Source: Candidatus Multivoradales bacterium
Lineage (GTDB): Bacteria > Acidobacteriota > Thermoanaerobaculia > Multivoradales > JAHEKO01
Reading direction: 5' to 3'
Length of the DNA: 64,000 bases
Assembly: GCA_965248055.1 (NCBI GenBank)
Contig: CBDFIJ010000004.1
Coordinates: 988,299 to 1,052,298, forward strand
Position 1 is the first letter of the stretch. The number at the start of each line of letters is the position of its first letter. The position numbers and the translations under genes are program-made. Below are positions 28,262-29,878 of this stretch, piece after piece. The notes under the pieces are model-generated. The model saw nothing but the letters and a program-made list of their open reading frames with translations, was not told where the DNA came from and searched no databases.

Positions 28262-28851
28262 TTATTCGCTGTCAATCTCGGAAAGGTAGAGATCCCCTCG
28301 CGAAGTGGAGAGCGAGTAGACAATCCCTTCCTGGGTCAGCGCCATGGTCGCCGCGTCTTCTAGCTCGCTTTTTGCTTCGGTCTCCGCCAGTTTGGCCAAG
28401 CCACAGGTCCAACACTTTCGCCTGCCCTCTCTGGTTCACCATCACGTTGGCGGGTTTGAAGTCACAGTGGATGATTCCCTTAGCGTGAGCTTCGGCCAGG
28501 GCGTCGGCGATGGGAATGGCAAGATCAAACAGCTTGCTGAGCCCAAGACCATCTGCAGGAACGTGCTGGTCAAGAGTCTCACCTTCCACCAGCTCCATAG
28601 TCAGGAAGTGAATCCCGTCGGTTTCTTCGACCGAGTGGATGGTGACGATATTGGGGTGGTTGAGCGCTGCCACCGTCTTGGCCTCGCGTTTGAAGCCCTC
28701 CAAACGATTGGGATCGCTGGCCAGCCGCTGGGGTAAAACCTTTAAGGCTACTGAAAACGGCTGAGCCCTCCGTGCCCGATACACCTCTCCCATTCCCCCC
28801 TCGCCGAGCTTGGAAAGGGATACGGTAGTGAGACAGCCTCTCTCCGATCAC
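28262..28851 (-). pseudogene. Ser/Thr protein kinase remnant (frameshifted, truncated)
   Basis: GTG + MIGERLSHYRI, then +1 shift into the frame encoding [15 protein letters not shown] (Gly-loop), ALKVL (VAIK), and a degenerate catalytic loop HCDFKPANVMV. A second shift follows near LD(FG)LAKL, with termination ~190 aa before the activation segment/APE. Confidence 0.55.
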
Positions 28852-28960
28852 CAGTTTGTGTCCTTTCGAGATAGAGATCTTTCGCTCGGCTCAGGACTCA
28901 GCGCCGAGCGCCTCGGCTTGGCGGTGATCTGGTAGTGAGAGAGGGTGGTACCAATCACGC
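28795..28960. repeat. direct repeat copy 1 (~165 bp, ~85% identical to 29700-29878) covering the kinase 5' end and upstream hairpin
   Basis: Base-by-base comparison of the two stretches. Both contain GAGATCYTTCGCTCGGCTCAGGACTCAGCGCCGAGCG. Confidence 0.75.
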
Positions 28961-29401
28961 CAGCGGGTCCTCGACCGCTAGTCCCGGGATGGATTGGAAG
29001 TTGCGATCATGAGTCCAGATCACCGAGGCTCCGTTGTCAAACGCCGCCAAGGCGATCTGAAGGTCGAAGACCCGCACACCGCGGATGTCCCGGTCTGTAG
29101 CAACCTGCAGTAGCCGAGGGCCGAATTCCGGGCCAGGCCGCCAAAGACGGCCGCCGCCGTCTACCAATCCCTGCAAGAAAGCCTGTGCCTCGAGTGGCTC
29201 AGAGGGGCGACCGGTAGCGGTCGGATGGGTCACGATGCTCCAGAACTCGGCGATCGCAGGCGAGGCAACACCCCAACCACGACCACTGTCGGCAGCTCGT
29301 TGAATCGCTTCGCGCGCCGCGGCGTGCTCAGAAACCCCAGTGCGATGGGCGTAAACCAAAAGGTTGGTATCGATGGCGATCACGATACCGTTCGCAACCA
29401 T
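28955..29401 (-). CDS. vapC: PIN-domain ribonuclease toxin
   Basis: IAIDTNLLVYA (acidic PIN residues), 148 aa. Overlaps the upstream antitoxin gene by 22 bp. Confidence 0.8.
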   Translation of the reverse strand: MVANGIVIAIDTNLLVYAHRTGVSEHAAAREAIQRAADSGRGWGVASPAIAEFWSIVTHPTATGRPSEPLEAQAFLQGLVDGGGRLWRPGPEFGPRLLQVATDRDIRGVRVFDLQIALAAFDNGASVIWTHDRNFQSIPGLAVEDPLA

Positions 29402-29625
29402 TCACGCATCGCGGCGCGATCGGCGACGTCTATCCCCGCAGGTAGGCCTCCATTCACCGTCACGAACTCGAGTCGCTGAGTTCGATGCTCCGCGATCGGT
29501 CGATCGCTCTCCAGCTCGCGCCGCAGGCCACGGGTAAACAACTTGCGCAGAGTCGTCCTCTCTTCTGCGGCCTTTTTCTTGGCCGCGACCAGCAACTCTT
29601 CAGGTAGGTCAATGGTGGTTTTCAT
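29380..29625 (-). CDS. vapB: type II antitoxin (VapB-like, MKTTIDLPEELL family)
   Basis: 81 aa. MKTTIDLPEELLVAAKKKAAEE is characteristic of VapB/ribbon-helix-helix antitoxins. Confidence 0.65.
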   Translation of the reverse strand: MKTTIDLPEELLVAAKKKAAEERTTLRKLFTRGLRRELESDRPIAEHRTQRLEFVTVNGGLPAGIDVADRAAMREWLRTVS

Positions 29626-29674
29626 GAACCCATATTGCCATATTTATGGTTATACGGCACATCTCATCTTGGCC

Positions 29675-29764
29675 TCACTGCACTTTCGCGCGATAAACCT
29701 CTTTCATCCCACCTATGCCCAGCTTGGAAAGGATGCGGTAGTGAGACAGTCTCTCTCCGGTCAT
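29675..29764 (-). pseudogene. 30-codon kinase N-terminal remnant (MTGERLSHYRILSKLGIGGMKEVYRAKVQ*) inside direct repeat copy 2
   Basis: Hand translation. Intact Gly-loop in frame, preceded by AAAGGA, but terminates after 30 codons. Confidence 0.4.
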
Positions 29765-29878
29765 CAGTTCGCGTCCTTTTGAGATTGAGATCCTTCGCTC
29801 GGCTCAGGACTCAGCGCCGAGCGCCTTAGCTTGGCGCTTATCTGGTAGTGGGAAAGCGTGGTGCCGATCAGTTCCCCC
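29700..29878. repeat. direct repeat copy 2 flanking vapBC
   Basis: See copy 1. Same orientation. The vapBC pair lies exactly between the copies. Confidence 0.75.

What the first reader, a model, noticed from the sequence alone, without database searches (positions are those of the whole stretch)
28262..29878. vapBC toxin-antitoxin cassette bracketed by ~165-bp direct repeats inside a decaying Ser/Thr kinase gene
Both repeat copies contain the kinase ribosome-binding site, the MxGERLSHYRI N-terminus and the Gly-rich loop. Copy 2 ends after 30 codons. Copy 1 continues into a kinase that needs two frameshifts and has a degenerate catalytic loop (HCDFKP for HRDLKP). It terminates before the activation segment. 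The simplest reading is that the TA module was captured by duplication or recombination within the kinase 5' region. This example links toxin-antitoxin mobility to target-gene inactivation.
Basis: seen in the sequence. Interest (0 to 1): 0.65.

Follow-up and report, generated by a model that had tools for sequence, protein, structure and literature searches.

The report
Toxin-antitoxin pair between kinase-gene stubs
An intact VapBC toxin-antitoxin gene pair sits between two 184-bp copies of the start of a protein-kinase gene that is itself decaying; a related genome already has the same pair wedged between kinase genes, so this looks like ordinary gene decay around a hard-to-lose addiction module, not a fresh jump that broke a gene.

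Summary
Two direct repeats (28774-28957 and 29688-29870, minus strand, 184/183 nt, 84% identical, period 913) flank an intact vapBC. Each repeat holds the 5' end of a Ser/Thr kinase. The downstream copy runs into a kinase remnant with two frameshifts, HCD for HRD, and no 3' 80% of the gene.

The block is absent from the same site in over 20 related Thermoanaerobaculia genomes; that site is hypervariable. In one relative (MAG12), a homologous vapBC lies between two co-directional kinase genes. Its stop is 7 nt before a kinase start that matches the first 14 codons of each repeat. So the vapBC-kinase junction appears inherited, not a new insertion.

After the copies split, the downstream N-terminus kept the family consensus while the upstream stub lost its Gly-loop. 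The kinase therefore stayed under selection and died later, from frameshifts and a 3' deletion unrelated to the TA.

Each repeat is composite: an ancestral-type N-terminal stub, a 65-nt spacer, then a second start. The origin of this structure is unexplained.

One other locus of this vapBC family also carries 115-nt flanking repeats. This resembles the 'insertion with long target duplication' known for restriction-modification systems. Interest is modest.

The parts
28774..28957 (-). Direct repeat R1 (184 nt): piece A1, spacer, and the B1 kinase start through the Gly-loop up to ...EVYRA
29688..29870 (-). Direct repeat R2 (183 nt), 84% identical to R1. An orphan kinase 5' stub upstream of vapBC
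28917..28958 (-). Piece A1: VIGTTLSHYQITAK, a 14-codon kinase N-terminus of the type found uninterrupted in MAG12. Its GTG overlaps the vapC TGA (GTGA). It opens a 36-codon ORF (28848-28958) whose stop overlaps the B1 start
28852..28916 (-). Spacer 1 (65 nt) with an 8-bp GC hairpin (CGCTCGGC...GCCGAGCG), a 34-nt core identical in both copies, and an AAAGGA RBS. Origin unknown
28262..28851 (-). Ser/Thr kinase pseudogene, N-lobe to mid activation segment, about 190 of about 900 codons. Start GTG at 28851. Frameshift 1 at 28817-28819, frameshift 2 in DFG at about 28401-28407, HCDFKP at 28452-28469. Kinase similarity ends at about 28319
28955..29401 (-). vapC (PIN-domain toxin), apparently intact. 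The likely real start is GTG 29383 (142 aa). The acidic residues D11, E52, D113 and D132 are conserved
29380..29625 (-). vapB antitoxin (81 aa), full length relative to homologs
29626..29660 (-). Conserved upstream region of the vapBC module: operator-like CCATA-AA-TATGG and AATATGG repeats. DNA homology to other vapBC loci stops here
29661..29687 (-). About 27 nt of unassigned sequence between the end of R2 and the vapBC module (a junction)
29675..29764 (-). B2 stub ORF, MTGERLSHYRILSKLGIGGMKEVYRAKVQ*. The Gly-loop is degraded (GIGGMK)
29871..29905 (-). 35-nt gap between the stop of the methylmalonyl-CoA epimerase gene (29906-30340) and R2. This is the left edge of the lineage-specific block
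27381..28214 (+). Convergent conserved gene (277-aa secreted protein) that bounds the block on the right

Best explanation
The 1.65-kb block is the eroded remnant of a kinase-vapBC-kinase arrangement like the one still seen in a related Thermoanaerobaculia genome.

Shown:
- vapBC is a compact module of about 0.72 kb, running from about 35 nt of operator to the vapC stop.
- In both this genome and MAG12, the module abuts the start codon of a co-directional Ser/Thr kinase gene of the STK plus beta-propeller family.
- In MAG12, a second kinase gene ends 36 nt upstream of vapB.

Inferred:
- The two 184-bp repeats are the 5' ends of the two kinase copies on either side of vapBC. They are not a target duplication made by a TA insertion.
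- The upstream copy lost everything after codon 29 by deletion and then drifted. Its Gly-loop is ruined and piece A2 has no proper start codon.
- The downstream copy stayed functional for most of the time since the copies split. It later died through two indels and a deletion of about 2 kb at its 3' end.
- vapBC is the only intact part, because losing an addiction module is counter-selected while its neighbours can be trimmed up to its edges.
- The whole block sits in a hypervariable spot between two convergent core genes.
- The very tight vapC-stop/kinase-start junction, and the fact that repeat homology begins exactly there, are what a tandem duplication of a [kinase-vapBC] unit would produce.
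For: - The repeat is real and its edges are sharp.
- vapBC is intact and belongs to a large family with over 3000 relatives. Module homology to other loci ends at the vapC stop and about 35 nt upstream of vapB.
- MAG12 contig L099 reads: kinase 3' end, 36 nt, vapB, vapC, 7 nt, then ATG of [28 protein letters not shown]... A blastn HSP runs from vapB through piece A1. The following Gly-loop matches B1 at 86%.
- Window and MAG12 VapC share a 1-aa deletion that the other homologs lack.
- Only these 2 of 8 independent loci of the family have a kinase next to vapBC.
- Tandem kinase arrays occur in this clade.
- Full-length relatives are 837-1007 aa with PD40/Tricorn domains. None of that part survives in the window.
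- Third codon positions differ at 14/38 sites, against 7/78 non-third sites and 7/65 spacer sites. Among G/C sites the rates are 42% against 15% (p=0.016).
- The recognisable non-synonymous changes (I>T, E>I, G>K) are all in R2. This is judged against the family consensus.
- More than 20 relatives have the epimerase and the 277-aa gene convergent, with gaps from 26 nt to 4.2 kb and never a kinase or vapBC in between.
- Eight neighbouring genes align to relatives as single uninterrupted HSPs, so the frameshifts are not typical of this assembly.
Against: - Both repeats share the odd composite structure of A stub, spacer and second start, but MAG12's downstream kinase lacks the spacer and second start. 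The array model therefore needs one more event: gene conversion between the flanking copies, or loss of the 107 nt in MAG12.
- The 84% identity is uniform across coding and non-coding parts. That fits a segmental duplication as well as paralogy does.
- The 5' end of MAG12's upstream kinase is off the contig, so its similarity to the downstream kinase is untested.
- Window VapC is no closer to MAG12 VapC (68%) than to homologs in unrelated contexts (70-73%).
- The rest of this genome could not be searched for other copies.
- In MAG12 the epimerase site is empty (L025), so the block is not at the same chromosomal position in the two genomes.
Confidence: 0.45

Rival explanations
1. A secondary duplication around a vapBC-kinase junction that already existed. 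A 913-bp unit [vapBC plus the first 184 bp of the downstream kinase] was duplicated in tandem, or was excised as a circle and re-integrated by homologous recombination (Campbell type) into a homologous kinase 5' end. This left one repeat on each side of vapBC. Conserved kinase 5' ends would then act as landing pads for the TA.
For: - Identity is a uniform 84% over the stub, the non-coding spacer and the second start, and both copies share the same composite junctions.
- The right edge of R2 is followed by about 27 nt of unassigned sequence and then the module operator, as expected for a circle or duplication joint.
- The divergence pattern fits one copy under selection and one copy neutral.
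- An independent locus of the same vapBC family (L088-L091) has 115-nt flanking direct repeats at 89% identity. They are made of the downstream gene's upstream region, where no paralog explanation is possible.
- Addiction modules flanked by long target duplications are documented for R-M systems (PMC2853133). A TA flanked by 152-bp repeats is documented in Microcystis (PMC7935541).
Against: - A plain tandem duplication would leave a second vapBC upstream of R2, yet no trace of a vapC 3' end is there. The loss would have to end within a few bases of the repeat edge.
- A Campbell event needs a second A-spacer-B kinase lacking vapBC at this site, and no relative has a kinase here.
- No empty site was found.
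- Six of eight loci of the family have no flanking repeats.
Confidence: 0.3
2. vapBC newly inserted into the 5' region of a resident kinase gene in this lineage, duplicating about 184 bp of target and thereby inactivating the kinase.
For: The geometry of repeat, TA, repeat with no mobility gene inside fits 'insertion with long target duplication'. The L088 locus shows that this can happen in this TA family.
Against: - MAG12 has the same vapC-stop/kinase-start junction without the repeats.
- The left edge of the duplication would have to coincide by chance with that inherited junction.
- The downstream kinase keeps a complete 5' end and shows purifying selection after the split.
- Its lesions lie elsewhere in the gene.
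- The kinase is not a conserved resident of this site.
Confidence: 0.1
3. The composite leader is functional. Piece A is a translated upstream ORF mimicking the kinase N-terminus. It is translationally coupled upstream to vapC (GTGA) and downstream to the kinase start (TGGTGA / TGATGA). The invariant hairpin acts as a regulatory element, so vapB-vapC-uORF-kinase forms one coupled operon.
For: - Stop/start overlaps are present at both ends of the uORF in R1, and at the uORF/B junction in both copies.
- In piece A, 6 of 7 differences are at third codon positions.
- The 34-nt core is identical in both copies.
- The spacer is as conserved as non-synonymous sites.
Against: - The third-position excess in A alone is not significant once the C-rich third positions are allowed for (about p=0.1).
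- A 34-nt identical run has about a 0.07 chance expectation.
- The folds are no better than shuffles (z=-1.7 and -0.4).
- There is no Rfam match.
- A2 lacks a canonical start.
- No tandem N-terminus architecture turned up elsewhere.
- The uORF peptide has no relatives.
- MAG12 lacks the structure.
Confidence: 0.05
4. An assembly or sequencing artefact. The repeats or the frameshifts come from misassembly or long-read indel errors.
For: The source contig is 3.35 Mb, possibly a long-read assembly. Frameshift 1 lies in a 3-base homopolymer. Several database relatives of the kinase on long contigs are also frameshifted.
Against: - Copies 16% diverged cannot be a collapsed or duplicated assembly.
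- The 3' truncation, the 29-codon stub and the second frameshift (not in a homopolymer) are not error types.
- Eight flanking genes are uninterrupted.
Confidence: 0.03

Closest known systems
VapBC type II toxin-antitoxin modules (PIN-domain toxin; Pfam PF01850, NCBIfam TIGR00028)
   Same: A small antitoxin gene overlaps a PIN toxin gene of about 142 aa (GTGA). The four acidic PIN residues are conserved. An inverted or direct-repeat operator sits just upstream. The compact module occurs in many unrelated genomic contexts.
   Different: The antitoxin matches no Pfam or NCBIfam model. Activity was not tested. Here the module is welded to a kinase start codon.
Insertion with long target duplication of restriction-modification gene complexes (Nobusato et al. 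2000, Gene 259:99; Furuta, Abe & Kobayashi 2010, PMC2853133)
   Same: An addiction-type gene pair with no transposase or integrase, flanked by direct repeats far longer than transposon target duplications (46 to over 400 bp there; 184 bp here and 115 bp in L088).
   Different: That class is defined by an empty site with one repeat copy in a related genome, and none was found here. The homologous MAG12 block shows that one junction is inherited. The cargo is a TA rather than an R-M system. The repeats are 84% identical, not near-identical.
ParE/ParD-like TA of Microcystis aeruginosa PCC 7806 fenced by two identical 152-bp direct repeats (Klemencic et al. 2021, PMC7935541)
   Same: A type II TA pair bracketed by direct repeats of about 150 bp that contain a short inverted repeat.
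   Different: Those repeats are identical, non-coding and 120-147 bp away from the genes. Here they are diverged gene 5' ends that abut the module.
Chromosomal TA loci as stabilisers of flanking DNA against deletion (Szekeres et al. 2007, Mol Microbiol; cited from my own knowledge, not checked here)
   Same: An intact TA survives while the neighbouring accessory genes are deleted or degraded right up to its borders.
   Different: This rests on inference from anatomy alone. No stabilisation was measured.
Hanks-type Ser/Thr kinases with C-terminal PD40/TolB-like beta-propeller, abundant in Acidobacteriota
   Same: The N-terminal motif M-I-G-x-x-L-S-H-Y-x-I, the Gly-loop GEGGMG, VALK, and 55-68% identity to family members over the N-lobe.
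   Different: Only about 190 of about 900 codons remain. There are two frameshifts, HCD for HRD, the DFG motif is disrupted, and there is no APE motif and no propeller.

Membership tests
VapBC type II toxin-antitoxin | Toxin is a PIN domain with conserved acidic active-site residues | tested here: met
   PF01850 at E=2.2e-9, above its cut-off. TIGR00028 at 70.0 bits, just below its 73.6 cut-off. D11, E52, D113 and D132 are invariant in a 12-sequence alignment.
VapBC type II toxin-antitoxin | Small antitoxin gene immediately upstream, overlapping the toxin gene, in one operon | tested here: met
   The 81-aa ORF at 29380-29625 has a stop that overlaps the GTG at 29383 (GTGA). The same layout is seen in 7 other loci.
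VapBC type II toxin-antitoxin | Antitoxin has a recognised DNA-binding fold (RHH, AbrB, etc.) and neutralises the toxin | tested here: inconclusive
   No Pfam or NCBIfam hit for the antitoxin. Its N-terminus MKTTIDLPEELL is conserved among homologs. Neutralisation cannot be tested here.
Insertion with long target duplication (Kobayashi group definition) | Insert flanked by direct repeats longer than 30 bp, with no mobility genes in the insert | tested here: met
   184/183-nt repeats, with only vapB and vapC between them.
Insertion with long target duplication (Kobayashi group definition) | A related genome has the uninterrupted target with a single copy of the repeat (empty site) | tested here: not met
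   The site in more than 20 relatives has neither a kinase nor a repeat. The only homologous block (L099) has vapBC already at the kinase start and a kinase 3' end upstream. Close relatives were not available.
Insertion with long target duplication (Kobayashi group definition) | Repeat sequence is not a dispersed multi-copy element | tested here: inconclusive
   Only two copies in the 64-kb window, and none in the genome or metagenome scans. The rest of the 3.35-Mb genome could not be read.
Hanks-type Ser/Thr protein kinase (functional gene) | Uninterrupted catalytic domain with GxGxxG, VAIK Lys, HRD, DFG and APE | tested here: not met
   The Pkinase match covers profile positions 13-144 of 263 only. 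There are two frameshifts, HCD, DFG read as DLW, no APE, and nothing downstream.
Integron gene cassette (attC-flanked) | Array of cassettes separated by attC sites, next to an integrase | tested here: not met
   Only two repeat copies. The repeats are kinase-coding sequence, and there is no array in the window.
Structured RNA leader or riboswitch | Match to a known RNA family, or a fold more stable than shuffles with covariation | tested here: not met
   No Rfam hit at E<=1. Fold z-scores are -1.7, -0.4, -0.6 and +0.5.

The most novel reading that the evidence does not exclude
This vapBC family moves as a bare module of about 0.72 kb by a recombination route that duplicates 100-200 bp of the 5' region of the gene downstream. 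That is 'insertion with long target duplication', so far described for restriction-modification systems. The highly conserved 5' ends of the multi-copy Ser/Thr kinase family serve as recurrent landing or homology sites. The window and L088 would be two independent footprints, and the nested A stub would be the scar of an earlier hop.
Probability: 0.17. Interest if true: 0.6.

Novelty: new member of a known kind. Interest (0 to 1): 0.3.

Why it matters
How chromosomal toxin-antitoxin pairs move without any transposase is still poorly understood. This locus gives a clean anatomical case. The TA module has exact boundaries, from 35 nt of operator to the stop codon. It is welded to a kinase start codon in two genomes and is flanked by long diverged repeats. 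A second locus of the same family has 115-nt flanking repeats. A systematic survey might show such repeats to be enriched around TA modules. That would extend the 'long target duplication' route from R-M systems to TA systems. As it stands, the window mainly illustrates how an addiction module outlives the genes around it. It does not show a TA insertion knocking out a gene.

Tried and rejected
- Exact look-ups of window proteins to recover the source genome found nothing on record. The 173-aa kinase ORF and VapC are in the protein collection, from a 3,345,972-bp contig, but without a name.
- Exact scans for the invariant repeat core in genome and metagenome collections gave 0 hits.
- A degenerate scan for two tandem G..LSHY.I starts 65-95 nt apart gave 2 hits. 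Both are chance: tRNA-like repeats and an unrelated tandem repeat. The same motif search in 1.35 Mb of held loci found the arrangement only in the window.
- An Rfam search found nothing. The promoter/terminator scan found nothing. RNA folds of the leader are not better than shuffles.
- The uORF peptide, searched against 1.84 billion representatives, gave 0 hits. Power is low for 36 aa.
- I tested whether the repeat homology extends into the vapC 3' end or past codon 30. It does not.
- I tested whether the spacer is a diverged vapC 3' end, which would imply tandem [vapBC-kinase] units. It is not: 1 of 16 tests gave p=0.008, and the rest gave p>0.1.
- I considered third-position bias in piece A alone as proof of translation. 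I rejected it because all changes are at C and the third positions are C-rich (about p=0.1). Only the combined A+B test holds.
- I considered codon-periodic divergence as proof against an in-situ duplication. I rejected that too. A 2:1 ratio of third to non-third changes, expected with one selected copy and one neutral copy, is not excluded.
- A viral-contig scan for VapC relatives found none.
- The contexts of the two closest relatives of MAG12's upstream kinase (L103, L104) have no vapBC.
- GC content of the block (55-63%) does not differ from its surroundings.
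Full report
**Observation.** All features lie on the minus strand. The repeat finder, MAFFT and blastn agree on one pair of direct repeats, R1 at 28774-28957 and R2 at 29688-29870. They are 184/183 nt long with 28 substitutions and one 1-nt indel (84% identity). The start-to-start spacing is 913 nt and blastn gives E=4e-53. There is no third copy in the 64-kb window. The 38-49 nt outside each edge are no more similar than shuffled sequence (p=0.70 and 0.72), so the edges are sharp. Between the repeats lie two genes.

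- vapB is at 29380-29625 and encodes 81 aa.
- vapC is at 28955-29401 by ORF. It matches Pfam PIN at E=2e-9 and NCBIfam TIGR00028 at 70 bits, against a cut-off of 73.6.
- Comparison with homologs places the real vapC start at GTG 29383, with the usual GTGA overlap with the vapB stop.
- The four acidic PIN residues are invariant in a 12-sequence alignment.

**The kinase remnant.** R1 continues into a Ser/Thr kinase N-lobe. The Pkinase match (E=1e-20) covers profile positions 13-144 of 263.

- Relative to R2, MAG12 and the family, there is one extra base in the GGG run at 28817-28819.
- A second one-base insertion lies inside the DFG motif at about 28401-28407 (GAC CTG TGG for GAC TTT GGC).
- The catalytic loop reads HCDFKP at 28452-28469, with the catalytic D, K and N kept.
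- Kinase similarity stops at about 28319, after ...TQEGIV. That is inside the activation segment and before the APE motif.
- Full-length relatives are 837-1007 aa with PD40/Tricorn-type beta-propellers. tblastn with three full-length kinases finds nothing of that part anywhere in the window. About 80% of the gene is therefore gone.
- The convergent 277-aa gene ends only 48 nt beyond the last kinase ORF.
- Eight neighbouring genes align to relatives as single full-length HSPs. The frameshifts are thus not typical of this assembly, and the truncation cannot be a sequencing error.

Each repeat is composite.

- It begins with a 14-codon kinase N-terminus of a different type, piece A: (V/L)IGTTLSHYQI(T/S)AK.
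- Then comes a 65-nt spacer. It contains an 8-bp GC hairpin inside a 34-nt core that is identical in both copies, plus an AAAGGA RBS.
- Then comes the second start, piece B: (V/M)(I/T)GERLSHYRILSKLG..., running into the Gly-loop.
- A1's GTG overlaps the vapC TGA.
- The 36-codon ORF opened by A ends on a TGA that overlaps the B start, in both copies.

**Origin of the window and synteny.** The closest acyl-CoA dehydrogenase genes are 73-78% identical and come from Thermoanaerobaculia (Acidobacteriota) MAGs. In more than 20 of these genomes the order ACAD, epimerase, then the convergent 277-aa gene, then DAHP synthase is conserved. The gap between the epimerase and the 277-aa gene varies from 26 nt to 4.2 kb. 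It holds an amylase, ABC-transporter genes, prephenate dehydrogenase, a CPBP protease or a small conserved ORF. It never holds a kinase or vapBC. The kinase/vapBC block is therefore a lineage-specific occupant of a hypervariable spot, not a conserved resident gene that was hit.

**The vapBC family.** VapC has over 3000 relatives. DNA homology between the window and seven other loci runs from the vapC stop to about 35 nt upstream of vapB, where an operator-like CCATA-AA-TATGG / AATATGG motif lies, and no further. The module is thus a compact unit of about 0.72 kb found in unrelated contexts. These contexts are: after hyp genes, after a fatty-acid/ACPS operon, after clpB-SLT-SPOR, next to a peroxidase gene, next to nicX, and next to a pemK pair.

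**The key comparison.** One homolog (P0129) comes from Thermoanaerobaculia MAG12, the same assembly as locus L025. On its 2.9-kb contig (L099), vapBC lies between two co-directional kinase genes.

- An STK-propeller gene ends 36 nt before vapB.
- Seven nt after the vapC stop, a kinase gene starts with [40 protein letters not shown].
- blastn aligns the window to L099 continuously from 24 nt upstream of vapB through piece A1, and matches A2 at 79%. It then resumes at the Gly-loop after B1 at 86% over 50 nt.
- Relative to MAG12, the window kinase therefore carries an extra 107/108 nt (the spacer plus B codons 1-14), bounded by CCAAGC.
- Window and MAG12 VapC also share a 1-aa deletion that the other homologs lack.
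- Overall VapC identity between them (68%) is no higher than to other family members (70-73%).
- Kinase adjacency occurs in only these 2 of 8 loci, with the stop-to-start distance at 0-7 nt in both.

Shared ancestry of the vapBC-kinase junction is the economical reading. In MAG12 the epimerase site is empty (a 50-nt gap in L025), so the block sits elsewhere in that genome.

**Divergence between the two repeats**.

| Site class | Differences |
|---|---|
| Third codon positions of A and B | 14 of 38 |
| Non-third positions of A and B | 7 of 78 |
| Spacer | 7 of 65 |
| G/C sites only, third vs non-third | 42% vs 15% (p=0.016) |
| G/C sites only, third vs spacer | 42% vs 15% (p=0.009) |

- Judged against the family consensus, the clear non-synonymous changes in B are all in R2: I>T, E>I and G>K. 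They turn GEGGMG into GIGGMK.
- With MAG12 as outgroup, A1 has three changes, all at third positions. A2 has four, three of them at third positions.
- The third-position excess in A alone loses significance once the C-rich third positions are allowed for (about p=0.1).
- The overall pattern fits R1 staying under purifying selection as a working kinase 5' end while R2 drifted. It does not by itself separate 'two paralogs' from 'one duplication'.
- It does show that the kinase remained functional long after the two copies arose. Its later death, from two indels and a 3' deletion, is unrelated to the TA.

**Explanations.** Three points are firm.

- The vapBC-kinase junction predates this genome.
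- The repeats are two homeologous copies of one kinase 5' end.
- vapBC is the only intact element.

I rank the explanations for how R2 came to lie upstream of vapBC as follows.

1. *Decay of a kinase-vapBC-kinase array, as in MAG12 (0.45).* The upstream kinase would have been cut down to a 29-codon stub by deletion. A tandem duplication of a [kinase-vapBC] unit would also explain the welded stop/start junction, and why repeat homology starts exactly there.
2. *Duplication or Campbell-type reintegration of a 913-bp [vapBC + R] unit (0.30).* Support comes from the uniform 84% identity over non-coding parts. Further support comes from an independent case in the family. In L088-L091, vapBC is flanked by 115-nt repeats at 89% identity (z about 69). 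These repeats are made of the upstream region of the downstream gene, where paralogy cannot be invoked.
4. *A functional uORF leader (0.05).*
5. *An artefact (0.03).*

Each of the first two needs one ad hoc step. The first needs conversion between the flanking copies, or loss of the 107 nt in MAG12. The second needs exact loss of a second vapBC, or a vapBC-less paralog at this site.

**Comparison with known systems.** The gene pair is an ordinary VapBC. The repeat-TA-repeat geometry resembles 'insertion with long target duplication'. That was described for restriction-modification complexes, with repeats of 46 to over 400 bp and an empty site in a sister genome (PMC2853133). It also resembles the ParDE-like pair of Microcystis fenced by identical 152-bp repeats (PMC7935541). 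Membership in the long-target-duplication class fails on its defining test. No empty site was found, and one junction is inherited.

**Verdict.** This is a new member of known kinds: a VapBC module surviving inside decaying accessory DNA. Interest is about 0.3. The lead worth following is whether long flanking repeats are enriched around TA modules. The unexplained item is the origin of the 107-nt spacer plus second start.

Noticed in passing
L088 4587-4701 and 5527-5641 (also L089, L090, L091): A vapBC 73% identical to the window's is flanked by 115-nt direct repeats at 89% identity (period 940, z about 69 against shuffles). The repeats are made of the upstream region of the co-directional 1392-aa gene and contain a perfect TATAAT. 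The upstream neighbour is divergent, so this looks like an insertion with long target duplication.
   Followed up: partly
window 28809-28916 and 29722-29829 (minus strand): A 107/108-nt segment (65-nt spacer plus a second kinase start, codons 1-14) interrupts the ancestral-type kinase start in both repeats. It is bounded by CCAAGC and is absent from MAG12. Its origin is unknown. In copy 1 it keeps piece A in frame with the kinase body, apart from one TGA.
   Followed up: partly
window 28215-29905 versus L001-L040: The junction between the methylmalonyl-CoA epimerase gene and the convergent 277-aa gene is a hypervariable spot in Thermoanaerobaculia. The gap runs from 26 nt to 4.2 kb and carries different cargo in different genomes: an amylase, ABC transporter genes, prephenate dehydrogenase, a CPBP protease, or a 115-aa ORF.
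   Followed up: yes
proteins P0005, P0006, P0022, P0057, P0067, P0068, P0114 (database hits to the kinase): Many of the best hits to the kinase fragment are themselves frameshifted or truncated ORFs, several on contigs of 0.1-2 Mb. Two of them break at the DFG motif. This means either frequent decay of this kinase family or indel errors in long-read assemblies.
   Followed up: no
window 29381-29401: The longest vapC ORF starts at ATG 29401, but homologs and the GTGA overlap with the vapB stop point to GTG 29383 (142 aa). MAG12's gene call carries the same spurious 5' extension.
   Followed up: yes
L103 374-9874: Three Ser/Thr kinase genes lie within 10 kb in a related Acidobacteriota genome: two in tandem and one divergent. 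This shows that kinase arrays are common in the clade.
   Followed up: no
window 29626-29660; L081, L082, L088, L094, L096, L099 upstream of vapB: An operator-like motif (CCRTA-N2-TAYGG followed by TAATATGG) is conserved within 35 nt of the vapB start in all loci. DNA homology between loci stops immediately upstream of it.
   Followed up: partly
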